Positions 2,855 to 45,263 of a DNA stretch of 45,263 nucleotides are shown piece after piece. The DNA comes from Reclinomonas americana ATCC 50394 (taxonomy: Eukaryota): the NCBI GenBank assembly GCA_048213135.1, contig PS015137.1:93373-138635 (forward strand), given 5' to 3'. The notes beneath the pieces were generated by a model, which did not search any database, was not told where the DNA came from, and worked only from the letters and a program-made list of their open reading frames with translations. The first letter of the stretch is position 1, and every line of letters begins with the position of its first letter. The translations under genes and the position numbers were made by a program.

Positions 2855-2943
<89 letters not shown>

Positions 2944-15529: not shown

Positions 15530-15619
<90 letters not shown>

Positions 15620-18558: not shown

Positions 18559-19638
18559 ATGACCTCCCCTCCTCCCTCCCTCCCGCACAAGTGCCTGCGA
18601 GTGCGCCCTCCTTTGAATGCGGTTGGTGTTCTGACTCCCGATGGGGAGCACATGGTGAACAAGCACGAGCCAGTGTTAATACTCTGGTCGCTGGCGAGCA
18701 AAGAAGTGGTGCGGCGCATGGACGGACACAGGGAATGGGTGATATGTGTCGCCGTCGCCTCCAATGGTCAGCACATTGTCAGCGGCGGTTGGGACCACAC
18801 CGTCAGGGTGTGGTCGCTTACGAGTGGAGAGGAATTACGAATGTTCAGAGGCCACACTGCGTACGTGCAGTCGGTTGCCGTCACTCCCGATGGTCAGCTC
18901 ATTGCAAGCGGTAGTGCCGACAACACTGTGCGTGTGTGGTCGCTGGCGAGTGAGAAAGCGATGCATCGGTTGGAGGGACACTATTCGGTGGTGGACTCGG
19001 TGGCTTTCACTCCCGACGGTCGGCACGTGGTGGCCGGCGGCTACATGATCGTACTCGTGTGGTCGATGGCAAGTGGAGCGGAAGTGAGGCGGTTTGAGGG
19101 TCACGCAGATCTGGTGATGGCTGTCGCTGTTACTCCCGATGGGCAGCACGTGGTGAGCGGGGGTGACGACAGCACTGTGCGAGTGTGGTCACTGGCGAGT
19201 GGCGAGGAGGTGCGCCGATTCGAGGGACATACACATGGGGTGAGAGCTGTCGCCATCACTCCCGACGGGCGGCACGTGGTTAGCGGAAGTGACGACAAGA
19301 CCGTGCGCGTGTGGTCACTGGCGACGGGAGAAGAAGTGCGACGATTAGAGGGACACAGTTGGAAAGTGCGCTCTGTCGCCATCACTCGAGATATGCAGTG
19401 CATCGTCAGCGGCGGTGAGGACCAGACGGTGCGGGTGTGGTACACTCCTTGCGGACTCGCTCGACAGGAGCTCGACTGCGCTCGACTGGCCATGCAGGTG
19501 GTGCAGGAGGTGCAGCAAGAGGAGGAGGAAGAGGAGGTGGTGGGGGATCGTCGGTGCCTGGTTGAGATCGTGCTGCGCTGCTTCTTGGTCGAGGAGGCGG
19601 AGGTCGTTCTCCACCGGCGCTGTAGCCTCTCGTGGTGA
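18559..19638 (+). CDS. Intronless WD40 protein, array copy 1 (7 repeats, first degenerate) with conserved C-terminal tail
   Basis: 359-aa ORF; 42-aa repeats GHxxxVxxVAxTPDGxHVVSGxxDxTVRVWSLxSGEEVRR; tail GLARQELDC...RCLVEIVLRCFLVEEAEVVLHR. Confidence 0.93.
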   Translation: MTSPPPSLPHKCLRVRPPLNAVGVLTPDGEHMVNKHEPVLILWSLASKEVVRRMDGHREWVICVAVASNGQHIVSGGWDHTVRVWSLTSGEELRMFRGHTAYVQSVAVTPDGQLIASGSADNTVRVWSLASEKAMHRLEGHYSVVDSVAFTPDGRHVVAGGYMIVLVWSMASGAEVRRFEGHADLVMAVAVTPDGQHVVSGGDDSTVRVWSLASGEEVRRFEGHTHGVRAVAITPDGRHVVSGSDDKTVRVWSLATGEEVRRLEGHSWKVRSVAITRDMQCIVSGGEDQTVRVWYTPCGLARQELDCARLAMQVVQEVQQEEEEEEVVGDRRCLVEIVLRCFLVEEAEVVLHRRCSLSW

Positions 19639-19773
19639 CTTGCAGAACGATCGCAGTGGAGGTTGAAGACGTATCCGCCTGGCGTCATCAACATTCACTT
19701 TGGTTGCTCGCGGCAACAACCACGGTTCGTCAGGACGCTCAAACTTTCTGGTTTGCTACTGAGACCGAAGGCA

Positions 19774-19825
19774 ATGTCTGACGAGGATCGACAAGCTGTG
19801 GCTCACCGAGGGTATGCAGTCTCGT

Positions 19826-19880
<55 letters not shown>

Positions 19881-20980
19881 GTGTGCGTGTGTGTGCGTAT
19901 GTGTGAGAGAGAGAAAGTCGATTGCGGTGCCAACCTTGCCACGCGCAGCCTGGAGCGTGAATCAACAGCGCTTACTGCAGCTGTGTTGTCGCCAGCAGAG
20001 CAGATCAGGTTTGGTCGCCACACCACTTGCTTATGTAAAATGAGCACCCGCTGACCCGTATATTCCACAGTGCCCTGGAACGTCTACTTCAAGAACAGAG
20101 GGCGGCACGGAGGAGGATTGAGGATCTGTACACCATTCAGCGGCAAAAGCGCAAGGCTGCAAAATCGGAGGCGAAGAACTTACGCGAGCGCCTGGACGAC
20201 ACGCAGCGTTACCACGAGGAACTCCTCCAACAAGAGCAGGCGCACAAGGCCGCCATTGGCAAACTTACTGCCGAACTTGCGGAGGCCGAGAAAGAACACA
20301 AGGCCACTGTTGCCGACCTCTCGGCCCAGTTGGCCAACAAGAACGTGGAGATCGCGGAGCTCGACACTCGCATCGCTGTCCTGGAACGAGTCATCCAAGA
20401 CAAGGGCGAGGAGATCAGGAAGCTTAGTGATGAGGTCGCCGAGCTTTGCCAGCGTGTGGGCGTACTCGCTGAGGACGGCAGACGCAAGGGCGAGCAGATT
20501 GCAGGGCTCGAGTCTCGCATTACACAACTAGAAGGCGTCGAGGGCAAGCAGGAGCTACTTGTCGTTCGGCAGCTCGTTCTCGAGGTCGAGGAGAGCCTTT
20601 TCTCGGTTGTCGAGGCCGGAATCCCGGATGAGTGGCACACTGACTTTGGGTCGTACTCAGTGGCCGACGGCCACGACAAGATCAGGAGCTTCAAGGATCT
20701 GATGGCCGTTGTCAAGCATGTGGACAACGCCGCTGCGAGGTGTCTCCGGGTGGCGATCGAGACGAAGCTCCTCGAACTGGGTGTCACTCTGAATCTCGAC
20801 GCGTTTTGCGTGAAGGCGAAGGCGCTGAAGGCACCTGGCAACACCTTCGCGCATGAAGATGCCGCTCAGCTTCTTCGCGCTGCCGTTGCCGACAATCAAC
20901 TTTCCGAGACGTTCAGGCGTGCGCACTTCAACCCGCGACACGAGATCATCAACCTGTATCGATCGTTGAATGTACCCTAG
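19774..20980 (+). CDS. Three-exon coiled-coil protein (about 335 aa) with a helical C-terminal domain, located inside the WD40 array
   Basis: Exons 19774-19811, 19949-20008 and 20071-20980 join in phase 2/2 (MSDEDRQAVAHRG-LERESTALTAAVLSPAEQIS-ALERLLQEQRAARR...). Heptad-like LSAQLANKNVEIAELDTRIAVLERVIQDKGEEIRKL. Ends TAG. Confidence 0.8.
19827..19915. repeat. (GT)n microsatellite in intron
   Basis: Direct reading. Confidence 0.95.
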
Positions 20981-21080
20981 CATCTCGTTCAGCCCTCCAA
21001 GAAACAAAACCGGCGACTTCATGCGTCGGTGGTGCGTCCCGTGACTCTTCTCATTTGGGAATTTCTCCGCCAACCACGCC

Positions 21081-22163
21081 ATGACCTCCACTCCTCCCTC
21101 TCTCCCGCACAAGTGCCTGCGTGGACACACTGCATGGGTGACGTGCGTCGCTGTCACTCCCGACGGCGAGCACATTGTGAGCGGGGCTGAGGATTGGACC
21201 GTGCGAGTGTGGTCTTTGAAGACAGGCAACGAAGTGCAGCGCTTGGAGGGACACGACAGTGATGTGACGGCTGTTGCCGTCACTCCCGATGGGCAACACG
21301 TGGTGAGCGGCAGTGCCGACGACACTGTGCGTGTGTGGGCGCTGGCGAGTGGCAAGGAACTGTGGCTGTTGGAGGGACACACTCTGGAGGTGCTCTGTGT
21401 CGCCATCACTCCCGACGGGCGGCACGTGGTGAGTGGCGGTGTGGACTCGACAATCCGCGTGTGGTTGCTGGCGAGTGGCGAGGAGGTGCGACTGCTGGAG
21501 GGACATGAGGGGGGCGTGTATTCCGTGGCCGTCACTCCCGACGGTCTGCACGTGGTGAGCGGCAGTTGGGACAAGTCGGTGCGTGTGTGGTCACTGGCGA
21601 GTGGTAAGGAAGTGAGGCAGATGAAGCGTCACTCGAATTTCGTGTTGTCCGTGGCCGTGACTCCCGATGGACTGCAGGTGGTGAGTGGAAGTAGCGACAA
21701 TACCGTGCGTGTGTGGTCACTGGCGAGTGGCGAGGAGGTACAACGGTTGGAGGGACACAGTTGGAGTGTGCTTTCCGTCGCCGTCACTCCCGACGGGCAA
21801 CATGTTGTGACTGGTAGCGAGGACACGACGGTGCGCGTGTGGTCACTGGCGAGTGGCCAACAAGTGCGTTGGCTGGAGGGGCACACAGGTTCCGTTAGGA
21901 CTGTTGCTGTCACTCCCGATGGACAGCACGTTGTGAGCGGAAGTCACGACCAGATGGTGCGAGTGTGGTCCACTCCTTGTGGGCTCGCTCAACAGGAGCT
22001 CGACTGCGCTCGCTCGGCAGTGCAGGTGGTGCAAGAGATGCGGGAGGAGGAGGAGGAAGAGGAGGTGGATCTTCGCTGCTTGGCGGAGATCGTCATGCGG
22101 TGTTTCCTGGTCGAGGATGCAGAGGTCGTTTTCCACAGGCGCCGCACAGATAGAGTACTTTGA
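21081..22163 (+). CDS. Intronless WD40 protein, array copy 2
   Basis: 360-aa ORF with seven 42-aa repeats plus tail. Confidence 0.95.
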   Translation: MTSTPPSLPHKCLRGHTAWVTCVAVTPDGEHIVSGAEDWTVRVWSLKTGNEVQRLEGHDSDVTAVAVTPDGQHVVSGSADDTVRVWALASGKELWLLEGHTLEVLCVAITPDGRHVVSGGVDSTIRVWLLASGEEVRLLEGHEGGVYSVAVTPDGLHVVSGSWDKSVRVWSLASGKEVRQMKRHSNFVLSVAVTPDGLQVVSGSSDNTVRVWSLASGEEVQRLEGHSWSVLSVAVTPDGQHVVTGSEDTTVRVWSLASGQQVRWLEGHTGSVRTVAVTPDGQHVVSGSHDQMVRVWSTPCGLAQQELDCARSAVQVVQEMREEEEEEEVDLRCLAEIVMRCFLVEDAEVVFHRRRTDRVL

Positions 22164-22342
22164 GCTCACTCTCTCGTCTCCTTTCGTGGTTATTTGTCGG
22201 TCTGTCTTTTTTGTTCTCGGTTGCGCATGTCTGCTGTAAATGAACAGCTTTTGAAGCGCTGCAGTCTCCACTCTTTGACGTGAATGCGGACGTCGACTGT
22301 GTCCTCCTCCACCGCGCTTCATATCACTTTGCAAGTAGAGCC

Positions 22343-23419
22343 ATGACCACCGCTCCACCCTCCCTCCCACACAGGTGCTTGCACGGGCACTCTGCGTGGG
22401 TCATGTCTGTTACCGCCACTCCCGATGCCCAGCACATTATCAGCGGGGGTTGGGACAGAACCGTGCGCGTGTGGTCGCTGGCGAGTGGCGAAGAAGAGCA
22501 TCTGCTGGAGGGTCACTCTGAGTTGGCGTTGTCTGTCGTCATCACCCCCGACAATCAGCACATTGTCGCCGGCAGCCGTGACAATACCGTGCGTGTGTGG
22601 CTACTGTCGACCAGGCAAGAGGTGCACCGATTGCGTGGGCATGATGCATGGGTGCAGTCGGTCGCCGTCACACCCGATGGCCAGCACGTTGTGAGTGGGA
22701 GTATGGACTCGACGATACGAGTGTGGTCGCTGGCGAGTGGGAAGGAAGTGCGACAGCTGGAGGGACACGGCAGTGATGTGAACTCGGTCGCCGTCACTCC
22801 CGACGGCCAGCTCATTGTGAGCGGGGGCGGAGATATGGCTGTGCGCTTGTGGTCGCTGGCGAGCGGAGAAGAGGTGCGACGAATGGAGGGGCACACAGGT
22901 GCAGTGCACTCGGTCGCCGTCACGCCCAACGGTCTGCACGTGGTGAGTGGGGGTGCCGACAATTCCGTGCGAGTGTGGTCGCTGGCGACAGGCGAGGAGG
23001 TGCGCCGATTCAAAGATCACCCGTGGGCGGTGGTGTCTGTCGCCGTCTCCTCTGACGGGGAGCATGTTGTCAGCGGCTGTGACGATTGGACAGTGCGCGT
23101 GTGGTCGCTGACGAGTGGTAAAGAAGTGCGACGGCTGATGGGGCACACGGACACGGTGAGGTCGGTCGCCATAACTTCCGACCGGCAGTACATTGTGAGC
23201 GGAGGCGATGACTGGACGGTGCGAGTGTGGTCGACGCCGTACTGCCTCGCGCGACAGGAGCTCGATTGCGCTCGTTCAGCCATGTACGTGGCGCAAGAGA
23301 TGAAGGAAGAGGAAGAGGAGCCGGATCCGCGCTGTCTGGTGGAGATCGTCATGCGCTGTTTCTTGGTCGAGGAGGCAGAGGTCGTTCTCCACCGGCACGT
23401 GGCGGATGGCAAGCTTTGA
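22343..23419 (+). CDS. Intronless WD40 protein, array copy 3
   Basis: ATG at 22343 (MTTAPPSLPHRCLHGH) is homologous to the paralog starts; seven repeats plus tail. Confidence 0.95.
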   Translation: MTTAPPSLPHRCLHGHSAWVMSVTATPDAQHIISGGWDRTVRVWSLASGEEEHLLEGHSELALSVVITPDNQHIVAGSRDNTVRVWLLSTRQEVHRLRGHDAWVQSVAVTPDGQHVVSGSMDSTIRVWSLASGKEVRQLEGHGSDVNSVAVTPDGQLIVSGGGDMAVRLWSLASGEEVRRMEGHTGAVHSVAVTPNGLHVVSGGADNSVRVWSLATGEEVRRFKDHPWAVVSVAVSSDGEHVVSGCDDWTVRVWSLTSGKEVRRLMGHTDTVRSVAITSDRQYIVSGGDDWTVRVWSTPYCLARQELDCARSAMYVAQEMKEEEEEPDPRCLVEIVMRCFLVEEAEVVLHRHVADGKL

Positions 23420-23577
23420 ATGTTGGCATATTTTTCCTTTTCTCTCACTCTCTCGCCCCGCAATTACTTTTCTCTTGTTGCCTACTTCCCAGTTGCAACA
23501 GTAAAGCTTTTGAAGAGCGACAACTCGACGTCGGCGGGCGCCGGCGCGGGGTGTCCGTCACAAACACAGATTGATTG

Positions 23578-24684
23578 ATGAACCGCCGTTCGCGCCACCG
23601 TCCCTCGGTTCCAGCACCACCCTCCGTCCCGTGCAAGTGCTTGCGTGGGCACACTGGATGGGTGTCGTCTGTCGCCGTCACCCCAGATGGCAAGCGTATC
23701 GTCAGCGCAAGTTATGACAAAACATTGCGCGTGTGGTCTCTGGCGAGCGGAGAGGAAGTGCGGAGGCTGGAGGGACACACAGAAAAGGTGTACAGTGTTG
23801 CTGTCACTCCCGACTGCCAGCACGTTGTGAGTGGGAGCATGGACAGAACGGTGCGTGTGTGGTTCATGGCAAAAAAGGTGGAGACGCACCGTTTGGAGGG
23901 CCACGCGGGAATGGTGTTGTCTGTCGCTGTCTTTCCTAACGGTCGGCTCGTGGTGAGCGGGAGTGCAGACGAGACGGTACGTGTGTGGTCTCTGGAGAAG
24001 GGAAAGGAAGTGCGGCGACTGCAGGGGCACTCGGGGTGGGTGTACGCCGTCGCTGTCGCTCCCGACGGGCAGCATGTTGTGAGTGGAGGTGCCGACAAGA
24101 CAGTGCGAGTGTGGTTGCCGGCGGAGAGAAAAGAGGTGCTGCGACTGGAGGGGCACTCGGGGTGGGTGTACGCTGTCGCCATCACTCCCGACGGGCAACA
24201 TGTGGTGAGTGGCAGTGAGGACAAGACTGTGCGTGTGTGGTCGCTGGAGAGTGGCGAAGAGGTGCGACGGATGGAGGGGCACACCGATGAGGTGCTTTCA
24301 GTCGCCATCACTCCCAGTGGCGAGCACATTGTGAGTGGAGCTGACGACAACACTGTTCGAATCTGGTCGCTGGCGACAGGCGAGGAGGTGCTGCGCATGG
24401 AGGGGCACACGAGTTTCGTGGCCTCCGTCGCCGTCAGTCCCGACGGACAGCACATCGTAAGCGGCAGCGAAGATGCCACGGTGCGCGTGTGGTCGATGCC
24501 GTATGGTCTCGCTCGAAAGGAGCTCGATTGTGCACGCGCGGTAATGCAGGTGGTGCACGAGATGCAGCAAGAGGCAGAGGAGGAGCCGGATCCTCGCTGT
24601 CTGGTGGAGATTGTGCTTCGGTGTTTCATAGTGGAGGATGCTGAAGTCGTTCTCTACCGATGCTTGGCAGATTGCGTACTTTGA
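23578..24684 (+). CDS. Intronless WD40 protein, array copy 4 (different N-terminus MNRRSRHRPSVPAPP)
   Basis: First ATG at 23578; seven repeats plus tail ending LADCVL. Confidence 0.93.
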   Translation: MNRRSRHRPSVPAPPSVPCKCLRGHTGWVSSVAVTPDGKRIVSASYDKTLRVWSLASGEEVRRLEGHTEKVYSVAVTPDCQHVVSGSMDRTVRVWFMAKKVETHRLEGHAGMVLSVAVFPNGRLVVSGSADETVRVWSLEKGKEVRRLQGHSGWVYAVAVAPDGQHVVSGGADKTVRVWLPAERKEVLRLEGHSGWVYAVAITPDGQHVVSGSEDKTVRVWSLESGEEVRRMEGHTDEVLSVAITPSGEHIVSGADDNTVRIWSLATGEEVLRMEGHTSFVASVAVSPDGQHIVSGSEDATVRVWSMPYGLARKELDCARAVMQVVHEMQQEAEEEPDPRCLVEIVLRCFIVEDAEVVLYRCLADCVL

Positions 24685-24852
24685 TTGCTTGCTTCTTTCT
24701 TTTCTCCCTTGCGCACCTGGCGGTTCTTTTTTCTTTGTCCGCGGCCGTGTTTTGTCATCTCAAGTAAAAGAACTGAATGAGTCGGTTTGCAGACTTCGGA
24801 ACGTCGGTGCTGTCCTCCTTGACACAGATCTCACACAACAGAACATCACGCC

Positions 24853-25940
24853 ATGACCTCCACTCCACCGTCTCTCCCACACAGATGCCTGCATGGGCAC
24901 ACGTCCTGGGTTATGTCTGTTGCTGTCACTCCCGATGCGCGTCATATCGTGAGTGGGAGTGCAGATGAGACGGTACGTGTGTGGTCACTGACGAGTGGAG
25001 AAGAGGTGCGACGACTGCAGCAGCGCTTTGGGTGGGTGTATGCCGTCGCTGTCACTCCCAATGGTCAGCACCTTGTCAGCAGCAGCTGGGACAAGACAGT
25101 GCGTATGTGGTCGCTGGCGAGTGGCGATGCGATGCTCCTGTCTGAAGGGCGCTCTACGTGGGTCGCCGTCACTCCCGACTCTCAGCACATTGTGAGCGGC
25201 AATATGAACAGGACTTTGTGTGTGTGGTCGCTGGTGAGTGGCGAAGAGGTGCAACGATTCGTTCACGATGCAGCAATTTCCGCCATTGCTGTCACTCCCG
25301 ACGGCCAGCACGTGGTGAGTGGGGATGAGGACAACGCCGTGCGCATGTGGTCAATGGCGACCGGACAGGAAGTGCGATGCATGAGGGGACACATTGGTGT
25401 CGTGTGTTGTGTCGCCGTCACACCCGACGGACTGTTTATTGTGAGTGGCAGTGGCGACAGTACCTTGCGCGTGTGGTCCGTGCTGAGTGGACAAGAAGTG
25501 CGACAGTTGGTGGGTCACCGCCACATGGTGATGTCTGTTGCCGTCACTCCTGACGGGCAGCATGTAGTCAGCGGCGGTCAAGACAAGACGGTGCGTGTGT
25601 GGTCGCTGGAGAGTGGCGAAGAGGTGCGACGATTGGAGGGACACACTGTCACTGTAAACTCTGTCGCCGTCACTCCCGATGGACAGCACATTGTGAGCGG
25701 CAGCGCAGATAAGACTGTNNNNNNNNNNNNNNNNNNNNGCGAGTGTGGTCGATGCCGTATGGTCTCGCTCGACAGGAGCTCGATTGTGCACGCGCGGTAA
25801 TGCAGGTGGTGCACGAGATGCAGCAAGAGGCAGAGGAGGAGCCGGATCCTCGCTGTCTGGTGGAGATCGTGCTTCGGTGTTTCATAGTGGAGGATGCAGA
25901 GGTTATTCTCTACCGGTGCTTGGCAGATTGTGTACTTTGA
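24853..25940 (+). CDS. Intronless WD40 protein, array copy 5 (interrupted by a 20-N assembly break)
   Basis: ORFs 24853-25800 and 25743-25940 are continuous with the paralogs once the N spacer at 25719-25738 is ignored. Confidence 0.85.
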
Positions 25941-26105
25941 TTGTCTGTTTCTTTCTTTTCTCCCTTGCGCACCTGGCAGTTCTTTTTTCTTTGTCCGCGG
26001 CCGTGTTTTGTCATCTCAAGTAAAAGAACTGCAAGTCTTCGGTTTGCAGACTTCTGCTGTCCTCGCGCACACATCAACCTCCTGTCCAACAAACAACATC
26101 GCGCC

Positions 26106-27193
26106 ATGACCTCCACTCCACCGTCTCTCCCACACAGATGCCTGCATGGGCACACGTCGTGGGTTATGTCTGTAGCTGTCACTCCCGATGCGCGTCATAT
26201 CGTGAGTGGGAGTGCAGATGAGACGGTACGTGTGTGGTCACTGACGAGTGGAGAAGAGGTGCGACGACTGCAGCAGCGCTTTGGGTGGGTGTATGCCGTC
26301 GCTGTCACTCCCAATGGTCAGCACCTTGTCAGCAGCAGCTGGGACAAGACAGTGCGTGTGTGGTCGCTGGCGAGTGGCGATGCGATGCTCCTGTCTGAAG
26401 GGCGCTCTACGTGGGTCGCCGTCACTCCCGACTCTCAGCACATTGTGAGCGGCAGCATGAACAGGACTTTGTGTGTGTGGTCGCTGGTGAGTGGCGAAGA
26501 GGTGCAACGATTCGTTCACGATGCAGCAATTTCCGCCATTGCTGTCACTCCCGACGGCCAGCACGTGGTGAGTGGGGATGAGGACAACGCCGTGCGCATG
26601 TGGTCAATGGCGACCGGACAGGAAGTGCGATGCATGAGGGGACACATTGGTGTCGTGTGTTGTGTCGCCGTCACACCCGACGGACTGTTTATTGTGAGTG
26701 GCAGTGGCGACAGCACTGTGCGTGTGTGGTCCGTGCTGAGTGGACAAGAAGTGCGACAGCTGGTGGGTCACCGATACATGGTGCTGTCTGTTGCCGTTAC
26801 TCCCGATGGGCAACACATAGTCAGCGGCGGTCAAGACAAGACGGTGCGTGTGTGGTCGCTGGAGAGTGGCGAAGAGGTGCGACGATTGGAGGGACACACT
26901 GTCACTGTAAACTCTGTCGCCATCACTCCCGATGGACAGCACATTGTGAGCGGCAGCGCAGATAAGACNNNNNNNNNNNNNNNNNNNNGGTGCGCGTGTG
27001 GTCGATGCCATATGGTCTCGCTCGAAAGGAGCTCGATATTGCACGCTCTGCGATGCAGGCGGTGCAGGAGATGCAGCAAGAATTAGGGGAGGAGCCGGAT
27101 CCTCGCTGTCTGGTGGAGATCGTGCTTCGGTGTTTCATAGTGGAGGATGCAGAGGTTGTTCTCTACCGATGCTTGGCAGATTGTGTACTTTGA
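26106..27193 (+). CDS. Intronless WD40 protein, array copy 6 (near-identical to copy 5; 20-N break)
   Basis: ATG at 26106; N spacer 26969-26988 sits at the same relative position as in copy 5. Confidence 0.85.
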
Positions 27194-27382
27194 TTGTCTG
27201 TTTCTTTCTTTCCTGTCTCCGTGCGCACCTGGCGGTTCTTTTTTCTTTGTCCGCGGCCGTGTTTTGTCATCTCAAGTAAAAGAACTGTGTGTTGTGCATT
27301 AGTCTCCTCGGTTTGCAGACTTCGGTGCTGTCCTCCTTGACACACATCACCCTCAACGAACGAATCTCAACAACATCACGCC

Positions 27383-28450
27383 ATGACCTCCACTCCACCG
27401 TCTCTCCCACACAGATGCCTGCACGGGCACACGTCCTGGGTTATGTCTGTTGCTGTCACTCCCGACAGCACGCACATTGTGAGTGGCGGTTGGGACGGCA
27501 CAGTGCGTGTGTGGTCTCTTGTGCGTGGAGAAGAGGTGCGACGGTTGGAGGGTCACACGGGGTGGGTGTATGCCGTCGCTATCACTCCCGATGGTCGGCA
27601 CGTGGTGAGCGGGAGCGATGACAGGACTGTGAGAGTGTGGTCGCTGTCGAGTGGCGATGAGATTCTCTTGTCTGAAGGGCGCTCTGCGTGGGTCGCCGTC
27701 ACTCCCGACTCTCAGCACATTGTGAGCGGCAGCAAGAACAGGACTTTATGTGTGTGGTCACTGGTGAGTGGCGAAGAGGTGCAACGATTCGTTCACGATG
27801 CAGCAATTTCCGCGATTGCTGTCACTCCCGACGGCCAGCACGTGGTGAGTGGCAATGAGGACAACGCCGTGCGCATGTGGTCAATAGCGACCGGACAGGA
27901 AGTGCGATGCATGAGGGGACACATTGGTGTCGTGTGTTGTGTCGCCGTCACACCCGACGGACTGTTTATTGTGAGTGGCAGTGGCGACAGCACTGTGCGT
28001 GTGTGGTCCGTGCTGAGTGGACAAGAAGTGCGACAGTTGGTGGGTCACCGCCACATGGTGATGTCTGTTGCCGTCACTCCCGATGGGCAACACATAGTCA
28101 GCGGCGGTCAAGACAAGACGGTGCGTGTGTGGTCGCTGGAGAGTGGCGAAGAGGTGCGACGATTGGAGGGACACACTGTCACTGTAAACTCTGTCGCCGT
28201 CACTCCCGATGGACAGCACATTGTGAGCGGCAGCGCAGATAAGACGGTGCGCTTGTGGTCGATGCCGTATGGTCTCGCTCGAAAGGAGCTCGATTGTGCA
28301 CGCGCGGTAATGCAGGTGGTGCACGAGATGCAGCAAGAATTAGGGGAGGAGCCGGATCCTCGCTGTCTGGTGGAGATCGTGCTTCGGTGTTTCATAGTGG
28401 AGGATGCAGAGGTTGTTCTCTACCGATGCTTGGCAGATTGTGTACTTTGA
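27383..28450 (+). CDS. Intronless WD40 protein, array copy 7
   Basis: 355-aa ORF with seven repeats plus tail. Confidence 0.95.
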   Translation: MTSTPPSLPHRCLHGHTSWVMSVAVTPDSTHIVSGGWDGTVRVWSLVRGEEVRRLEGHTGWVYAVAITPDGRHVVSGSDDRTVRVWSLSSGDEILLSEGRSAWVAVTPDSQHIVSGSKNRTLCVWSLVSGEEVQRFVHDAAISAIAVTPDGQHVVSGNEDNAVRMWSIATGQEVRCMRGHIGVVCCVAVTPDGLFIVSGSGDSTVRVWSVLSGQEVRQLVGHRHMVMSVAVTPDGQHIVSGGQDKTVRVWSLESGEEVRRLEGHTVTVNSVAVTPDGQHIVSGSADKTVRLWSMPYGLARKELDCARAVMQVVHEMQQELGEEPDPRCLVEIVLRCFIVEDAEVVLYRCLADCVL

Positions 28451-28622
28451 TTGTCTGTTTCTTTCTTTTCTCCCTTGCGCACCTGGCGGTTCTTTTCAGT
28501 CTGTCTCTCTTCTCCGTGACCTGTGTTTTGTTATCTCAAGTAAATGGACTGCAAGTCTTCGGTTTGCAGACTTCTGCTGTCCTCGCGCACACATCAACCT
28601 GTCCAACAAACAACATCGCGCC

Positions 28623-29696
28623 ATGACCTCCACTCCACCCTCTCTCCCACACAAGTGCCTGCACGGACATGCTTCTGTGCTCTCTGTTGCTGTCACTCCC
28701 GATGCGCATCATATCGTGAGCGGGAATGCAGACAGAACAGTGCGAGTGTGGTCGCTGATGAGTGGAGAGGAAGTGCGGCGGTTGGAAGGGCACACGAACA
28801 AGGTGCAGTGTGTTACCATCACTCCCGATGGTCAGCACATTGTCAGCAGCGGCTGGGACAAGACAGTGCGTGTGTGGTCGCTGGCGAGTGGCGATGAGAT
28901 GCGCCTGTCTGAAGGGCACTCTGTGTGGGTTGCCGTCACTCCCGACTCGCAGCACATTGTGAGCGGCAATATGAACAGGACTTTGTGTGTGTGGTCGCTG
29001 GTGAGTGGCGAAGAGGTGCAACGATTCGTTCGCGATGTACCAATCTATGCAATCGCTGTCTCTCCCGACGGTCAGCACGTTGTGAGTGGAGTGGCGGATA
29101 GAACTGTACGCGTGTGGTCAATGGCGAGTGGAAGGGAAGTGCGATGCATGAGGGGACACACGGGTGCCGTGTGTTGCGTCGCCGTCACACCCGACGGACT
29201 GTTTATTGTGAGTGGCAGTGGCGACAGCACCTTGCGTGTGTGGTCCGTGCTGAGTGGACAAGAAGTGCGACAGTTGGTGGGTCACCGATACATGGTGCTG
29301 TCTGTTGCCGTCACTCCTGACGGGCAACACATAGTCAGCGGCGGTCAAGACAAGACGGTTCGTGTGTGGTCGCTGGAGAGTGGCGAAGAGGTGCGACGAT
29401 TGGAGGGGCACTCGAGCTCTGTAAACTCTGTCGCCATCACTCCCGATGGAGAGCACATCGTGAGCGGCAGCGACGATTCAACGGTGCGCGTGTGGTCGAT
29501 GCCGTATGGTCTCGCTCGACAGGAGCTCGATTGCGCTCGTTCGGCCATGCAGGTGGTGCAGGGGATGCGGCAAGAGGAGGAGGACGAGGAGCCGGATCCG
29601 CGGTGTCTGGTTGAGATAGTCATGCGCTGTTTCTTGGTCGAGGAGGCAGAGGTTGTTCTTCACCGGTGCTTCACAGACGGCAGCCTTCGGCTGTGA
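28623..29696 (+). CDS. Intronless WD40 protein, array copy 8
   Basis: ATG at 28623 (MTSTPPSLPHKCLHGH); seven repeats plus tail. Confidence 0.95.
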   Translation: MTSTPPSLPHKCLHGHASVLSVAVTPDAHHIVSGNADRTVRVWSLMSGEEVRRLEGHTNKVQCVTITPDGQHIVSSGWDKTVRVWSLASGDEMRLSEGHSVWVAVTPDSQHIVSGNMNRTLCVWSLVSGEEVQRFVRDVPIYAIAVSPDGQHVVSGVADRTVRVWSMASGREVRCMRGHTGAVCCVAVTPDGLFIVSGSGDSTLRVWSVLSGQEVRQLVGHRYMVLSVAVTPDGQHIVSGGQDKTVRVWSLESGEEVRRLEGHSSSVNSVAITPDGEHIVSGSDDSTVRVWSMPYGLARQELDCARSAMQVVQGMRQEEEDEEPDPRCLVEIVMRCFLVEEAEVVLHRCFTDGSLRL

Positions 29697-29789
29697 TCAA
29701 CCATGATTGTGATTGGAAATGAAAGGCACACAACGGTCAATGTCGGGGCGCGATTGGATTTCATCACACTTTGCTCGCTCATCATTCTT

Positions 29790-30703
29790 CTACGCTGGCA
29801 AGCTGCGTGCCAAATCCCAAAAATGCTCCACACTGTGATCCGCCAGGTACTTGCGCGCCACCGACTCGTTGGGGAACAGCTGAAGGCGGAAATTGACAAA
29901 GTTCTGCTTGGGGAGGACGCCCTGCACGCGCGCGAGAGAGAGAGAGAGAAAGTGAAGTGAGGGACCGCTTGTCGACGATATCCTGTCACCCTACTACTGC
30001 CTACCGCACTCACCGTCCACACATGCACACACTTGTTGGCCGCCTTCTTGTCCTCCGAGTCCGACTCCCCATCGGCCGCTCCATCCTCGTCACCCATATT
30101 GGCGTTCCAGTCAATGCGTGTCAGCATGAGGCGCTCGAACTTGCGGAGTGCCTTCAGACCTGTGTGCCACATGTGGTGAGCGAAGGCGCAGGGAATGCGA
30201 AGAGAGAGTGGTCGCACGCAACTGCCTTCAACAATGACCAAATTCAACACATCCGACAACAGACCACAGCCCGTCAGATACAACTGCTTGGCGTTCAAGT
30301 CAATCTTCTTCTGATTCAGCTTGCTCTTCAGGTTGGTAATTCTGCATGTGAACAAAAGTGCGGCAGTGTCAGCGATGATCTCGATGGTAGAAGGCAAGTT
30401 GCGGCCCATGGACGACCACTCACTCATTCACTCACTCACACACACAGATACACACAAAGTCATTCACTCACTCTCTCACTCACCCACTCACTCACCCACT
30501 AATTCGCTCACTCGCTCACTGACACACTCACTCGCTCACTCACTGACACACACACACTCTCTCTCACAGAGAGAGTGAGAGACACACACACACCCACTCA
30601 CTCACTCTGTCTCACTCACTTACTCACTAATTCGCTCACCCACTCACTCTCACTCACTCACCCACCCACTCATTCACTGGCTCATTCACTGGCTCATTCA
30701 CTG

Positions 30704-30771
<68 letters not shown>

Positions 30772-33099
30772 GAGAGAAAGAAATACACTCACTCATTCAT
30801 TCACTTACACTCACTAATTCTCCACACATTTAACGAAACACACACTTGAACCTGCACACGATCTCCCCTTCCGATCCCCTTCCCCTATTCCCTTCCCCCC
30901 TTTGCAACGCACCTGTAGACAGCCACTTGAATCTGCACATCAGTACCCGCCGTAATCTTCTTCTTGAACTTGTCATGCCGCTGCTCGTCGGTCAGCTTGC
31001 GGTCGGCATTCGCCTTTTCGTGCGCCTCCTTGCGCTCCGCCATTTGCTTGCGCACTTCCATTTCCACCTTTGTTGGGTCCTTGGTGGCGCTGCCAGCCAG
31101 CGCCTTCATCATGTTGGAGAGCTTGACTGGAACATAAAAGGAGAGAGAGCGAGAAAATGAGTCATTACTTTCTCCTCGCGCACTCGCCACATTGTACGCA
31201 CGTTTCGGCGGCGGCGGAGCAATGAGACCCATGCGAATCTGTTCCTGCTTTTCCTTTTCACGCGCCATCCTGGTCTGCGTGCGCAACTTTCTCCGCTCCT
31301 GCAAGGGTAGGCGAGATACATCAGCAATCGAGTGAAACAGAGTGCAGCACGCCGACACGCACCTTTGGCGTCAACATCAGCGGAATCGGTGCTGCCGGCT
31401 TGTCCTCACAAGGCGGCTGCACCGGCACGGGATGCTCCACGTAAAATGCAATCTTTTTCGGTCGCACCTCAAAGTTGCCGTCGGTGACACACTCGTAGGT
31501 CGGGCGTGTCAGCAGCGGAAGGTCCCACCACTCCACGTCGGGCACTACCACGGGTTCCGCAACGGGCTTGGCTGCAGTCTGCACTCTGAATCGTAAGCAC
31601 AATAGGCCCCCCTTGTCACATGCAGCGCCACATCACGAGGCACGCAACTCCCAGTTCCACTCGAGCCCTGGCAATCTCACCACGTCGTTCACGCTCCGCG
31701 TCAAGCTGAACAAAACGAGTCAGACGAGGCGGAAAAATGGGAGAGAGTAAATGCAACACCGCAAAACGCTACCTGCTGTCGCTCCTCCTCCGCCTTGGTC
31801 ACAATGGAGCCGGGCTCCACAAACTCAAATGTGCCCCTCTTCTTGCGGAAGGCACGCTTCACCGACATGCTCGGATCGAAAAAGTGCTTCTCGCGGAAAT
31901 CAGGGAGTTTCTCCAGCGGCAGCGCGGACGTGGCGGTGGTGGTGGCTGTGGTGGTGGCCGCTGCTGCAAAGGGCATGCCGGCCACAGAGGCGGCCACAGC
32001 CGTCACCATGTCGGCAACCTTGGCGCTCATGGCGCTCGGCGGCAGCATCATGTCGTCCTCCTTTTGGTTGACACGGAGACTCTTGACGGGTTTCACCGGG
32101 ATGGCCATGACGTCGTGTAGTGGTGCGGGTGCCGTGGCGTTGGCTTTCTGCGAAATACAAAAAGGAAGGATGAGGAGGTGGGAGGAGGGCAGAAGAAGAA
32201 GATAAGAGCGTGACGCAACGAGGGCATTCAGCTGCGCCTGGATGAGGATCTTGCTCTTCATGACTTCCTCCTGCTGCTGTCGTTCGCGGGCCAGGGCGAT
32301 GCGCTGGGCGACTGTGGAAGAGGGAGAGGGAGGAAAGCGGGAAAGGGGAATTGAGGGGGAAGGGGAAAGGAAGGATGAGTGGGGGAAAGAGGGGGAAAGA
32401 GGGGGAAGGGGGAAGGGGGAAGTGAGTGGGGGAAAGAGGGGGAGGGAAGGGGGAGGAAGGGGGAATTGAGGGGGAACGGGGAAGGAAGGGGGAGGAGAGA
32501 GGAAGAGAGTGTGGGGAGAAAGGGGGAGAAAGGGGAGAGAGGGGAGAAAGGGGAGAAAGGGGAGAAAGGGGAGAAAGGGGAGAAAGGGGAGAAAGGGGAG
32601 GAAAAGGGAAAAGGGAGAAGAGAAGGGGGATGAGAGGGGGATGGTGAAAGGGGAAGAGAAGGGTGGAAGAGCAAGGGGAAAGGAGAGGGGAAGCGAAGGG
32701 AGGAGAGCAAGGGAAGGGGGAGGAAAGGGGGAAAAAAGGGTAAGAGACGAAATGAGAACGAGACAAGAAGGAAGAAAGCAACATGAGAAGAAAGAGAACG
32801 AGATGACAAGAGAAGAGAGGAGAGCGGGGAAGAGGCCTATCTGCCTCTGCTCGTTGCAACCGACACTCTCTGCCTCCCTTCCCACCAAACACGCAACTCT
32901 CTGGCGTCAACGCCACACTCGACGGCGCACTTGACACTGGCGCCACCATCGACACAGGCCTATTCAGCATTGGCGGAGGCACAGACGACGAATGCAATGA
33001 CGCCGATGAAGGAGGTGGAGGAGGAGGTGCAGGCTTGCTCTGAGCGACCTGCGCAGCGAGCTTGGCAATCTCGGCTTGCAGGCGTTGTTGAGTGGGCTA

Positions 33100-38027: not shown

Positions 38028-39139
38028 TCACCAGCTGACAGGGTCATCTTTAAAGCGTCGACGTGCCACAACCTCAGCCTCCTCGACGATGAAGCAGCGC
38101 AAAACAATCTCCACAAGGCAGCGCGGCTCCTGTTCCTCTTCTGCCTCTTGCTGTATCTCCTGCACAGCGCACATTGCCGAACGCGCGCTGTCGACCTCCA
38201 GCCGAGCGAGACCAAGTGGAGTAGAATACACACGGATAACCGGGTCTCGATTCTGGAGCCCAGTCACGAGGCGATGGGGAGCGACGGCAACAGCCGATAT
38301 CATGTCCGTGTGTGTGTCGAATCGTCGCACTTCCTTGCCACTCGCCAGTGACCACACACTCACTTCGCTGTTGTCCCTCACGCAGACAACGTACTGGCGT
38401 CGGGAGTGGCGGCGACAGCGAACAAACGATCAATGTGTCGCTCAAAACGCCGCACTTCCTCGCCACTCGCCAGCGACCACACCCGCACGGTTTTGTCACG
38501 TCCCCCGCTCACAATTTGCTGCCCATCGGGGGTGATGGCGACTGATTGCACCCGAGCCGTGTGTCCCTCCATCCGTCGCACCTCAGCGCCACTTACCAGT
38601 GACCACACTCGCACTGTCTTGTCCTCACTGCCACTCACCACGTGCTGGCCATCGGGAGTGAGAGCAACAGTCGTCACCCAACCAGTGTGCCCACGCAGCT
38701 GGGGCATTTCTGCTCCACTCGAGAGCGACCACACGAGTACGTTGCTGTGCATGAGCCCTCCGCCCACGATATGCTGGCCATCGGGGGTCACAGCGATAGA
38801 CCACACCCCTCCAATGTAACCCTTCCACTGGTGCACTTGATTCCCACGGGCCAGCGACCACACCCGCACTGTCATGTCGGCACTCCCACTCACAACATGC
38901 TTACCGTCGGGAGTGACGGCGACAGCAAACACCCATCCATGGTGTCCCTGCAGTCGTTGCACTTCCCGACCGCTCGCCAGTGACCACACTCGCACAGTCA
39001 TGTCTTTACTGCCACTCACAACGTGATGCCCGTCGGGAGTGAGAGCGACAGCAGTGACCGCCCATGTGTGCCCGTGTAGGCACTGGCACCACAAAGGAGG
39101 AGGAGGTGGAGGAGGAATGGGAGGAGGAGCTGAGGCCAT
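38028..39139 (-). pseudogene. Ninth WD40 family copy, inverted and detached from the array, with a 1-bp frameshift in repeat 6 (pseudogene or sequencing error)
   Basis: ORF 39139-38378 holds repeats 1-6a; ORF 38381-38028 holds the remainder and the family tail (GLARLEVDSARSAM...PRCLVEIVLRCFIVEEAEVV). Sense strand reads CCC GAC GCC AGT where paralogs have CCC GAC GGC CAG, i.e. one G is missing at ~38398. Confidence 0.7.
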
Positions 39140-40239: not shown

Positions 40240-40287
<48 letters not shown>

Positions 40288-40305
40288 GAGGGAGGGAGAG
40301 TGAGT

Positions 40306-40346
<41 letters not shown>

Positions 40347-40370
40347 NNNNNNNNNNNNNNNNNNNNGACG

Positions 40371-40410
<40 letters not shown>

Positions 40411-45197: not shown

Positions 45198-45263
45198 CTG
45201 CAAATAGGGGAGAATGGGGGAAGGGGGAAGGGAGGAAGTGAGGGGAAGGGAAGGGGAAGGGGA

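What the first reader, a model, noticed from the sequence alone, without database searches (positions are those of the whole stretch)
18559..29696. Tandem array of intronless seven-repeat WD40 genes: candidate variable recognition repertoire
Seen: eight head-to-tail copies (plus a ninth at 38028-39139), each with a short Pro-rich start, exactly seven highly similar 42-aa (126-bp) repeats and a shared ~60-aa tail. All are intronless while every neighbouring gene has introns. Established: high internal repeat identity with 42-aa units characterises fungal HET-D/HET-E (NACHT-WD) non-self receptors and many bacterial WD40 proteins. Here there is no NACHT, NB-ARC or other signalling domain, only a single propeller and a tail. 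Inference: a stand-alone, recently expanded family of variable binders (immune, allorecognition or substrate adaptors), possibly arising by retroposition or horizontal transfer. The VAVTPDG...VSGSxDxTVRVW consensus looks bacterial-like.
Basis: partly seen in the sequence, partly recalled or inferred. Interest (0 to 1): 0.8.

Follow-up and report, generated by a model that had tools for sequence, protein, structure and literature searches.

The report
Tandem array of tailed WD40 propeller genes
A protist genome carries a head-to-tail row of small genes that each encode one seven-bladed WD40 ring plus a family-specific tail, and the copies differ mainly on the ring's binding face, which suggests interchangeable binding adaptors of unknown target.

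Summary
The array is real. Eight + strand WD40 genes lie at 18559-29696 and a ninth, frameshifted copy lies on the - strand at 38028-39139. Each has a Pro-rich start, seven blades and a 62-65 aa tail. Spacers are 158-189 bp, and none has room for another domain.

"Highly similar repeats" is overstated. Blades share on average 55% of residues, no more within a gene than between genes, so HET-E-type homogenisation is absent.

Copies are kept by purifying selection (dN/dS 0.26-0.41). The four top-face positions per blade that are under positive selection in fungal HET-D/E change at about the synonymous rate, with 39 of 39 blades distinct.

Copies c5-c8 are recent. Tail plus spacer was exchanged between c4 and c5-c7. 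20-N gaps sit at the same offset in c5 and c6, so copy number is uncertain.

The tail matches no known family. Outside the window it was found only in one Reclinomonas americana EST and two divergent propeller proteins.

The propeller unit is closest to prokaryote-type "SVAVTPDG...VVSGS" repeats, but base composition matches the neighbouring genes.

Best reading: a lineage-restricted, tandemly amplified set of propellers with varied binding faces on a constant handle. The ligand, the partner and any immune role are not shown.

The parts
18559..19638 (+). c1: WD40 gene, 359 aa, 7 blades plus tail. Blade 1 is degenerate (no GH, ends LILW) and blade 4 is 41 aa.
19776..20980 (+). Unrelated two-exon coiled-coil gene inside the array. 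The start of exon 1 (about 19776) and of exon 2 (about 20050) are approximate. The inferred GT..AG intron holds a (GT)n run. No Pfam family.
   Evidence: splice sites are inferred, not shown by RNA
21081..22163 (+). c2: WD40 gene, 360 aa, seven 42-aa blades plus tail. This is the copy that was modelled.
22343..23419 (+). c3: WD40 gene, 358 aa, 7 blades plus tail.
23578..24684 (+). c4: WD40 gene, 368 aa, with an N-terminus 9 aa longer than the others. Its tail and downstream spacer are 92-99% identical to those of c5 and c7.
24853..25940 (+). c5: WD40 gene broken by a 20-N assembly gap (25719-25738) in blade 7. The tail resumes in another frame after the gap.
26106..27193 (+). c6: WD40 gene broken by a 20-N assembly gap (26969-26988) at the same offset as in c5. 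Its blades are 98% identical to those of c5.
27383..28450 (+). c7: WD40 gene, 355 aa. A mosaic: about 200 nt spanning blades 1-2 is only 74-75% identical to c5/c6, while the flanks are 95-99% identical.
28623..29696 (+). c8: WD40 gene, 357 aa, the outermost member of the c5-c8 subfamily. Its 3' end overlaps the end of the convergent Prp3_C ORF.
38028..39139 (-). c9: dispersed inverted copy with 7 blades plus tail and a frameshift in blade 6 (near 38378-38400). Either a pseudogene or a sequence error.
24685..24852 (+). Example of the conserved spacer type shared by c4-c5, c5-c6, c6-c7 and c7-c8. A pyrimidine-rich tract follows the stop codon, and ACATCACGCCATGACCTCCACT surrounds the next ATG.

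Best explanation
This is a lineage-restricted family, probably jakobid, of stand-alone seven-bladed WD40 propellers. Each carries a constant 'handle': a conserved N-terminal closure strand and a family-specific C-terminal tail of about 62 aa, predicted as two helices. Unequal crossing-over and gene conversion amplified the family into a head-to-tail array.

Shown: purifying selection holds the scaffold and the tail. The four top-face positions of each blade (unit positions 17, 19, 35 and 37, flanking the conserved V18 and D36) change at about the synonymous rate. Gene segments are exchanged between copies. As a result every copy, and every blade, presents a different ligand-binding face.

Inferred: the proteins act as interchangeable binding adaptors. 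The varied top face picks the ligand, and the constant tail docks all paralogs to one shared partner. This would work like the substrate receptors of ubiquitin ligases (F-box-WD40, WD40-SOCS-box), without being a member of those families.
For: Anatomy.

Fold: an AlphaFold2 model of c2 has pLDDT 88.9 and pTM 0.84. It shows seven blades at pLDDT above 90, then helices 299-323 and 332-356.

Copies are functional: dN/dS is 0.26-0.41 in 28 of 28 pairs of c1-c8. Tail pN/pS in five old pairs (c1-c2, c2-c3, c2-c4, c3-c4; also c5/c6/c7 against c8) is 0.25-0.38, like the scaffold's 0.27-0.38 in the four c1-c4 pairs.

Face variation: column entropy is 3.1-3.6 bits at unit positions 17, 19, 35 and 37, against 0.5 bits or less at V18 and D36. 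These are in the same register as codons 7, 9, 25 and 27 (flanking 8 and 26) reported under positive selection in HET-D/E, in the d-a loop and b-c turn of the top face (PMC1805685, passages). In recent pairs, residue changes at these sites are 13/26 against 36/262 elsewhere (p=4e-5), 12/26 against 34/262 (p=1e-4) and 17/26 against 37/263 (p=3.5e-8). The 58 blades carry 48 distinct four-residue combinations, and 39 of 39 are distinct in c1-c4, c8 and c9.

Exchange: the c4 tail and spacer are 92-99% identical to c5/c7 although the propellers are 56-77% identical. Tail pS is 0.14 against 0.51 for the scaffold.

Family-specific tail: a profile search of 1.84 billion representatives gave 3 hits, all propeller plus tail. 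One is an EST of Reclinomonas americana, so the family is transcribed there.
Against: Omega at the four a-priori sites is not significantly above 1. The ratio of pN at the four sites to propeller-wide pS is 0.22, 0.70, 0.93, 1.16, 1.11 and 1.40, with Fisher p of 0.12 or more in all six recent pairs. Simple lack of constraint therefore fits as well as diversifying selection.

The six-site 'hypervariable' class was chosen from the same data, so it is circular. Only the four-site test is a priori.

The tail model is of low confidence (pLDDT 50-65). No partner is known. The tail has no Pfam, PDB or ESM Atlas match, so the docking role is inferred from architecture alone.

No expression data exist for these copies. 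c9 is frameshifted and c1 has a decayed blade. Gene neighbours (PRP3, a kinesin, a coiled-coil gene) give no functional hint.
Confidence: 0.5

Rival explanations
1. Sensor-only recognition repertoire. The propellers are germline-encoded variable receptors for non-self (prey, bacteria, viruses or conspecifics). They would work like the WD40 sensor domain of fungal HET-D/E NLRs but signal through a partner in trans.
For: The same four top-face positions vary as in HET-D/E. The family is a tandem expansion with exchange between copies. It is lineage-restricted. The repeats are consensus-like, as in NLR-associated WD40s.
Against: There is no NACHT/NB-ARC or death-type domain and no room for one. 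Repeats are 55% identical, not near-identical, and within-gene identity equals between-gene identity. Blade number is fixed at seven. Omega is not above 1. No polymorphism or infection data exist.
Confidence: 0.12
2. Bacterial origin of the propeller. A prokaryote-type 'SVAVTPDG..VVSGS.D.TVRVW' WD40 domain was acquired by horizontal transfer in a bacterivorous protist, joined to a eukaryotic tail and then amplified. This concerns origin and is compatible with the best explanation.
For: Among the 120 best of 2266 hits to c2, the highest identities (54-62% over about 80% of the query) belong to metagenome proteins with near-identical units. For 85 of those 120 hits with at least 3 clean units, unit consensus identity reached 33/42, with 29/36 at scaffold positions; a fungal NWD-type protein scored 25/42. 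In the genome scan, 100 of 181 pattern matches were relatives; all 80 loci kept were prokaryotic, nearly all bacterial (Myxococcota, Planctomycetota, Verrucomicrobiota, Actinomycetota, Chloroflexota, cyanobacteria) plus one Methanobrevibacter MAG, at 25-53% identity. The closest solved structures are a designer consensus propeller (41% identity), a Thermomonospora WD40 (42%) and entry 2ymu, 'a highly repetitive propeller structure' (40%). LIS1 and WDR5 score about 30%.
Against: Consensus-like repeats converge, so high identity is weak evidence of descent. No tree was built. GC and GC3 of the WD genes (0.58-0.62 and 0.63-0.73) lie within the range of neighbouring genes (0.55-0.64 and 0.63-0.84). 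The tail is absent from all 80 bacterial loci (query matches end at residue 336 or earlier). Divergent tail-bearing relatives (P0122, P0123) have ordinary degenerate blades, which suggests an old eukaryotic family. The metagenome hits are not proven to be bacterial.
Confidence: 0.35
3. Redundant paralogs drifting neutrally. The family has one ordinary (structural or scaffold) job that depends on the fold and the tail. The top face is simply unconstrained and the array is a by-product of unequal crossing-over.
For: Omega is about 1 at the top-face sites, not above 1. Some copies show decay: c1 blade 1, the short blades 3-4 of c5-c8, the c9 frameshift, and loss of GH in blade 2 of c5/c6.
Against: In WD40 proteins with known ligands the top face is usually the most conserved surface between orthologs (established knowledge, recalled). 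Here it is the fastest-changing part, while the scaffold pN/pS is 0.17-0.25 in the c5/c6/c7/c8 pairs other than c5-c6 (0.16). Eight of nine frames are kept open across dS up to about 1.2.
Confidence: 0.2
4. Assembly artefact: the copies are collapsed or misplaced alleles rather than separate genes.
For: 20-N gaps lie at the same in-unit offset in c5 and c6. These two copies have 98% blade identity and dS of 0.078.
Against: All other pairs differ by dS of 0.145 or more, and mostly 0.75-1.19. Their spacers and N-termini also differ. So at least seven distinct genes exist. The gaps make copy number uncertain, possibly higher than assembled.
Confidence: 0.05

Closest known systems
Fungal NWD / HET-D, HET-E NACHT-WD40 receptors (Podospora anserina; PMC1805685, passages read)
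   Same: Both have 42-aa consensus-like WD40 units. The same four positions per unit vary (two pairs, each flanking a conserved residue, in the d-a loop and the b-c turn of the top face). Both are multigene families with exchange between members.
   Different: This family has no HET or NACHT domain. Its repeats are 55% identical rather than up to 100%. It shows no homogenisation within genes, a fixed seven blades, omega not shown to exceed 1, and an extra C-terminal tail.
Prokaryote-type multi-repeat WD40 proteins with 'SVAVTPDG(K/R)YVVSGS.D.TVR(L/V)W' units (metagenome proteins P0014, P0018, P0034, P0056, P0069, P0088; solved examples 5yzv and 2ymu)
   Same: The unit consensus matches at 28-33 of 42 positions. 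Whole-propeller identity is 54-62% for P0014, P0018, P0034 and P0056. These are the best structural matches.
   Different: Those proteins are 338-621 aa with other N-terminal regions: coiled coil, or FHA plus transmembrane in P0034 by its precomputed Pfam. Their internal repeat identity is higher (0.74-0.79 against 0.55). They end right after the last blade, without the tail.
Ubiquitin-ligase substrate receptors built from a WD40 propeller plus a small helical box (F-box-WD40; WD40-SOCS-box WSB proteins). Recalled from knowledge.
   Same: The architecture is similar: one propeller as the variable binding module plus a short constant helical module. In WSB proteins this module is also C-terminal.
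   Different: No F-box or SOCS-box match for any of the 9 tails, even at E up to 10. The tail has two predicted helices, not three. No partner is known.
Gcp1-Gcp3, Pex7-like WD40 proteins that co-occur with the mitochondrial type II secretion system in jakobids and other protists (PMC8134430, passages read)
   Same: These are WD40 proteins reported from the same group of protists, and some have C-terminal targeting signals.
   Different: Per the paper, Gcp1-3 are conserved across distant eukaryotes and are Pex7-like. The present family has consensus-type blades. Its tail was found in only 3 proteins of 1.84 billion representatives, and its C-termini are not conserved. No direct sequence comparison was made, because the Gcp sequences are in supplements that were not opened.

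Membership tests
WD40 repeat beta-propeller (Pfam PF00400) | Multiple WD40 repeat matches above the curated cut-off | tested here: met
   PF00400 scores 173-286 bits against a cut-off of 27. It finds 6-7 stretches in c1-c4, c7 and c8, and 4 in the truncated c9 ORF.
WD40 repeat beta-propeller (Pfam PF00400) | Closed seven-bladed fold | tested here: met
   The AlphaFold2 model has 28 strands in 7 blades at pLDDT above 90. Foldseek TM-score to 7-bladed propellers is up to 0.98. This is a prediction, not a solved structure.
Fungal NWD / HET-D/E type NLR | N-terminal NACHT (NOD) domain with an effector domain | tested here: not met
   Pfam finds only propeller families. Spacers are 158-189 bp and stops lie upstream of the ATGs.
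Fungal NWD / HET-D/E type NLR | Very high internal repeat identity (up to 100%) with concerted evolution within and between loci | tested here: not met
   Mean blade identity is 0.548 within genes (n=160 pairs), 0.549 between genes at different blade index (n=1278) and 0.639 at the same index (n=215). Tandem Repeats Finder gives 67-79% matches.
Fungal NWD / HET-D/E type NLR | Four top-face codons per repeat hypervariable | tested here: met
   Unit positions 17, 19, 35 and 37 have entropy of 3.1-3.6 bits. They are in the same register as codons 7, 9, 25 and 27.
Fungal NWD / HET-D/E type NLR | dN/dS above 1 at those codons | tested here: inconclusive
   Ratios of 0.22-1.40 in six recent pairs, none significant. 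There are too few close paralogs for site models.
Fungal NWD / HET-D/E type NLR | Variable number of repeats between members or alleles | tested here: not met
   All nine copies have seven blades. Alleles were not available.
WD40 plus SOCS-box / F-box substrate receptors | Recognisable SOCS-box or F-box sequence | tested here: not met
   hmmscan of 9 tails at E up to 10 gave only two chance hits (E about 0.2) to unrelated families. The PDB profile search gave one hit at E 0.98.
WD40 plus SOCS-box / F-box substrate receptors | Binding to an Elongin BC / Skp1-type adaptor | not testable with these tools
   No candidate partner from this genome was available.
Gcp1-3 (Pex7-like WD40 of miT2SS-bearing eukaryotes) | Conserved orthologs across distant miT2SS-bearing eukaryotes | tested here: not met
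   The tail profile found 3 proteins in 1.84 billion representatives. No full-length tailed protein turned up in the 5.8 billion-cluster collection. No direct comparison with Gcp sequences was made.
Prokaryote-type 'AVTPDG' multi-WD40 proteins | Shared unit consensus | tested here: met
   Identity of 26-33/42 for the 25 best of 85 scorable hits.
Prokaryote-type 'AVTPDG' multi-WD40 proteins | Common descent (phylogenetic nesting within bacteria) | not tested
   No tree was built, and repeat convergence makes BLAST rank unreliable. Base composition is native.

The most novel reading that the evidence does not exclude
A deep-branching bacterivorous flagellate keeps a NOD-less, germline-encoded repertoire of stand-alone propellers. 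Their binding faces are diversified by exchange of gene segments inside a tandem array, and they signal or deliver cargo through a new two-helix tail. This would be an innate recognition system built from a propeller captured from bacteria, independent of NLRs.
Probability: 0.1. Interest if true: 0.8.

Novelty: new variant of a known kind. Interest (0 to 1): 0.45.

Why it matters
Expanded WD40 families with variable top faces are known mainly as the sensor part of fungal and bacterial NLR-like proteins. Here the same pattern of variation occurs in stand-alone propellers, joined to a tail with no known relatives, in what is probably a jakobid. That lineage has almost no functional genomics.

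If the tail is a docking module, the family would be a new class of modular adaptors. If the propeller came from bacteria, it would be a clear case of a prey-derived binding scaffold being domesticated and amplified.

The finding is also a caution. Consensus-like WD40 repeats and top-face variability alone do not show an immune function.

Tried and rejected
- Whole-genome census: no genome is held for this window.
- Public sequencing runs for 20900-29800: none was listed and no RNA holder was listed. Read laying was therefore not used, and expression of these copies is untested.
- Tail against Pfam (9 of 9 tails without a credible hit), PDB sequences and the ESM Atlas (no usable hit): nothing.
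- Tail against JGI metagenome contigs: 189 pattern matches, 0 relatives.
- Tail region of c7 against the 5.8 billion-cluster collection at 195-622 aa: 1 candidate, 0 hits.
- Tail homodimer by complex prediction: no verdict (score 0.01, the alignment was not used).
- Rfam scan of the whole window: 0 matches.
- Whole-protein search with c2: swamped by multi-repeat WD40 proteins. None of the 120 listed covers the tail, and there was no self hit, so this genome's proteins are not in that collection.
- Organism: a kinesin fragment gave Andalucia godoyi as second best of 7899 hits (65% identity), with an animal protein first. This is only weak support for a jakobid.
- Retroposition was considered and rejected, because spacers are co-duplicated and breakpoints lie within genes. 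Poly-A remnants and target-site duplications were not searched for.
- Compensating frameshifts in blade 1 of c1: none. The other two frames hold stops.
- Spliced-leader trans-splicing or polycistronic transcription was considered because of the tight same-strand packing and the pyrimidine tracts. It was not tested.

Full report
**What is in the sequence.** The window looks like a eukaryotic nuclear region. GC is about 0.52-0.65 outside the N gaps, microsatellites are abundant, and conserved genes are split over several ORFs.

Eight ORFs on the + strand between 18559 and 29696 each encode the same layout: a Pro-rich start (MTSTPPSLPH-like), seven WD40 blades, and a tail of 62-65 aa. A ninth copy lies inverted at 38028-39139, with a frameshift in blade 6.

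From c2 to c8 the stop-to-ATG spacers are 179, 158, 168, 165, 189 and 172 bp (coordinates). The 1442-bp gap between c1 and c2 holds an unrelated coiled-coil gene. That gene appears to have one GT..AG intron carrying a (GT)n run (the splice is inferred).

Pfam finds only WD40 or propeller families in the seven copies scanned, and nothing in the coiled-coil ORF.

**Corrections to the observation.** The 126-bp period is detected in c1, c2, c3, c4, c7 and c9, but at only 67-79% matches. I aligned 58 blades: all blades of c1-c4, c7 and c8, six each of c5 and c6, and five of c9. Excluding the degenerate blade 1 of c1 from the pairs, mean protein identity was:
- 0.548 between different blades of one gene (160 pairs);
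- 0.549 between different-index blades of different genes (1278 pairs);
- 0.639 between same-index blades of different genes (215 pairs).

The blades are far more alike than in ordinary WD40 proteins. Paoletti et al. cite 10-20% identity for those (PMC1805685, passage). But they are not near-identical, and they are not homogenised within genes.

Blade lengths are 42 aa with exceptions of 39, 41 and 43 aa. Blade 1 of c1 has lost the GH motif without any frameshift.

c5 and c6 each contain a 20-N gap, 866 and 863 nt after their ATGs, and the tail continues in a different frame after each gap. Because their blades are 98% identical, the assembler evidently broke inside the repeat. The number of c5/c6-type units is uncertain.

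**Fold.** I modelled c2 with AlphaFold2 on a nine-row alignment: six window copies plus P0121-P0123. The model has mean pLDDT 88.9 and pTM 0.84. It shows a closed seven-bladed propeller (residues 11-297, pLDDT mostly above 90) followed by two helices, 299-323 and 332-356, at pLDDT 50-65.

The best solved matches are consensus-type propellers: the designer protein WRAP-T (7big, 41% identity), a Thermomonospora WD40 domain (5yzv, 42%) and entry 2ymu, 'a highly repetitive propeller structure' (40%). LIS1, WDR5 and Tup1 follow at 29-35%.

**Are the copies alive, and how do they evolve?** Nei-Gojobori estimates for all 28 pairs of c1-c8 give dN/dS of 0.26-0.41. dS is 0.078 (c5-c6), 0.145-0.165 (c5/c6-c7), 0.35-0.40 (c5/c6/c7-c8) and 0.75-1.19 for all older pairs. 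The array therefore contains old and young duplicates, all under purifying selection.

Variation is not spread evenly. Column entropy exceeds 2.8 bits at unit positions 15, 16, 17, 19, 35 and 37 (the unit ends at VRVW). V18, D36 and the strand residues are nearly fixed.

Positions 17, 19, 35 and 37 are in exactly the register of codons 7, 9, 25 and 27. Paoletti et al. found those codons under positive selection in the HET-D/E family. They flank conserved codons 8 and 26 and lie in the d-a loop and the b-c turn on the top face (PMC1805685, passages). In the c2 model these positions fall just before strand a and between strands b and c.

I used these four sites as an a-priori class for the c5-c8 pairs.
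- Residue changes at the four sites against the rest of the propeller: 13/26 vs 36/262 (p=4e-5), 12/26 vs 34/262 (p=1e-4) and 17/26 vs 37/263 (p=3.5e-8) for c5, c6 and c7 against c8.
- The three closest pairs were weaker: 1/27 vs 6/261, 5/27 vs 25/262 and 6/27 vs 23/262 (p=0.5, 0.18, 0.04).
- The ratio of pN at these sites to propeller-wide pS is 0.22, 0.70, 0.93, 1.16, 1.11 and 1.40. None is significantly above 1.

The scaffold has pN/pS of 0.16-0.25 in the same pairs. The six-site class was picked from the data and is circular, so I rely on the four-site test.

The 58 blades carry 48 different four-residue combinations. In c1-c4, c8 and c9 all 39 blades are distinct.

What is shown: a fixed scaffold with a top face that changes at the neutral rate or faster. 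What is not shown: positive selection.

**Exchange between copies.** I compared units in 100-column windows. c4 is 56-77% identical to c5 and c7 across the propeller, but 92-99% identical over three of the last four windows (tail plus spacer; 83-88% in the last two for c7). Synonymous divergence of the c4-c7 tail is 0.14, against 0.51 for the scaffold. The spacers c4-c5, c5-c6, c6-c7 and c7-c8 are one sequence type.

c7 is 95-99% identical to c5/c6 except for about 200 nt in blades 1-2, where identity drops to 74-75%. No copy in the window exceeds 79% there. This suggests a conversion tract from a copy elsewhere.

These mosaics are what unequal crossing-over and gene conversion in a tandem array produce. 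They argue against retroposition as the source of the copies.

**The tail and the family's distribution.** The nine tails align with 25 invariant columns, including the core RCL.EIV.RCF.VE.AEV. I searched a profile of the tails against 1.84 billion representative proteins and found three hits.
- P0121 (E 3.8e-22) is a 116-aa EST-derived fragment of Reclinomonas americana. It is 56-66% identical to the window copies over the last blade plus tail.
- P0122 and P0123 (E 2.5e-6 and 3.9e-5) are unnamed proteins of 394 and 381 aa. Their blades are degenerate and they carry the same tail. They are colinear with c2 at 26-29% identity.

Several other searches found nothing:
- a word-index search of the c7 tail in the 5.8 billion-cluster collection;
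- a pattern scan of JGI metagenome contigs;
- Pfam at E up to 10 for the 9 tails;
- PDB sequences;
- the ESM Atlas.

The tail is thus a family-specific module. The family is transcribed in at least one jakobid. The window's own proteins are not in the public protein collections searched, since one search returned no self hit.

A kinesin fragment from the window has an Andalucia godoyi protein as its second-best match of 7899 (65% identity). Together with the EST this makes a jakobid source likely but not proven.

**Bacterial likeness.** In the whole-protein search with c2, the highest identities (54-62% over about 80% of the query, never the tail) belong to metagenome proteins. Their units read SVAVTPDG(K/R)YVVSGS.D.TVR(L/V)W.LATG.EVRRF.GH.

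The window's unit consensus is SLASGEEVRRLEGHTGWVLSVAVTPDGQHIVSGSADKTVRVW. It matches the unit consensus of these proteins at up to 33/42 positions. Of the 120 listed hits, 85 had at least three clean units and could be scored. A fungal NWD-type protein scored 25/42.

A scan of one genome per prokaryotic species found 100 relatives among 181 pattern matches. All 80 loci kept were prokaryotic, nearly all bacterial (Myxococcota, Planctomycetota, Verrucomicrobiota, Actinomycetota, Chloroflexota, cyanobacteria) plus one Methanobrevibacter MAG, at 25-53% identity. None extended into the tail.

Three points weigh against concluding transfer:
- consensus-like repeats converge;
- GC and GC3 of the WD genes (0.58-0.62 and 0.63-0.73) sit within the range of their neighbours (0.55-0.64 and 0.63-0.84);
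- the divergent tailed relatives suggest an old eukaryotic family.

Transfer is possible but unresolved, and I built no tree.

**How it most likely works.**

Shown:
- one propeller per protein;
- a constant N-terminal closure strand and a constant tail, as constrained as the scaffold (tail pN/pS 0.25-0.38 in old pairs);
- a top face that differs in every blade of every copy;
- ongoing duplication and exchange.

Inferred: the proteins are interchangeable binding adaptors. The top face selects the ligand and the tail docks every paralog to a shared partner. This is the logic of F-box-WD40 or WD40-SOCS-box substrate receptors, although the family fails their sequence test.

A tail-tail dimer prediction gave no verdict and counts neither way.

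I put 0.5 on this overall reading. Most of the doubt concerns the function.

**Rival readings.**
- A sensor-only recognition repertoire: 0.12.
- Neutral drift of redundant paralogs: 0.2.
- Assembly artefact: 0.05, limited to c5/c6.
- Bacterial origin of the propeller: 0.35. This is a separate question and is compatible with the main reading.

**Comparison and novelty.** The family is a WD40 propeller family, and that membership test is met. It is not an NWD/HET-type NLR, because three defining features were tested and not met. It is not a recognisable F-box or SOCS-box protein. It is not a conserved Gcp/Pex7-like protein.

It works most like a variable-face, constant-handle adaptor family. I rate it a new variant of a known kind. 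The stand-alone architecture with a new tail, in a poorly studied deep-branching protist, is of moderate interest. Function, expression of these copies, true copy number and origin all remain open.

I found no description of this family in two searches: jakobid, nuclear genome, WD40; Reclinomonas americana, EST, nuclear, gene family expansion. The supplements of PMC8134430, which hold the curated jakobid WD40 sequences, were not opened and could bear on this.

Noticed in passing
window 5380-8046 (+): An 889-codon uninterrupted frame (P0124) rich in Gly/Asn/Ser repeats of the type '..GGG..', which suggests a parallel beta-helix surface protein. No Pfam family at E of 1e-4 or better.
   Followed up: partly
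window 19776-20980 (+): A two-exon coiled-coil gene sits inside the WD40 array. With it, the c1-to-c2 start spacing is 2522 bp, about twice the 1232-1278 bp unit. Its inferred intron carries a (GT)n microsatellite.
   Followed up: partly
window 29660-29696: The stop of c8 (29696) lies inside the 3' end of the convergent ORF carrying Prp3_C (stop at 29660-29662). The two genes appear to overlap tail to tail by about 37 bp, which points to a very compact genome.
   Followed up: no
window 24685-24760, 25941-26010, 27194-27270, 28451-28530: Pyrimidine-rich tracts (TTGTCTGTTTCTTTCTTTTCTCCC...TTCTTTTTTCTTTGTCC) start right after the stop codons of c4-c7. In a tight same-strand array these recall the signals used for coupled trans-splicing and polyadenylation in other Discoba. 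Not tested.
   Followed up: no
window 25719-25738 and 26969-26988: Two 20-N scaffold gaps lie at the same offset (866 and 863 nt from the ATG) in the near-identical units c5 and c6. The unit may be present in more copies than assembled.
   Followed up: partly
window about 27483-27683 (c7, blades 1-2): A tract of about 200 nt is only 74-75% identical to c5/c6 while its flanks are 95-99% identical. No donor above 79% exists in the window, which implies further family members elsewhere in the genome.
   Followed up: partly
proteins P0122 (394 aa) and P0123 (381 aa), unnamed Logan records: Divergent propellers with degenerate blades carry the same C-terminal tail core (V/I-L/M-RCF-I/L-x-ED). The propeller-plus-tail family is older and wider than the consensus-like array copies.
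   Followed up: partly
window 29663-31370 (-) and 43698-45263 (-): A PRP3 splicing-factor gene and a kinesin-3-like gene flank the array region. Both are split over separate ORFs, so introns are inferred.
   Followed up: partly
window 2857-4161, 12130-12350, 15516-15618, 30417-30766, 32345-32713, 37212-37531, 40243-40705: Dense simple-sequence tracts ((CT)n, (GA)n, (TCC)n, (CACT)n, GGGAGAAGG repeats, and a 47-bp repeat at 3091-3480) lie between and within the neighbouring genes. Larger N gaps are at 2125-2760 and 33280-34070.
   Followed up: no
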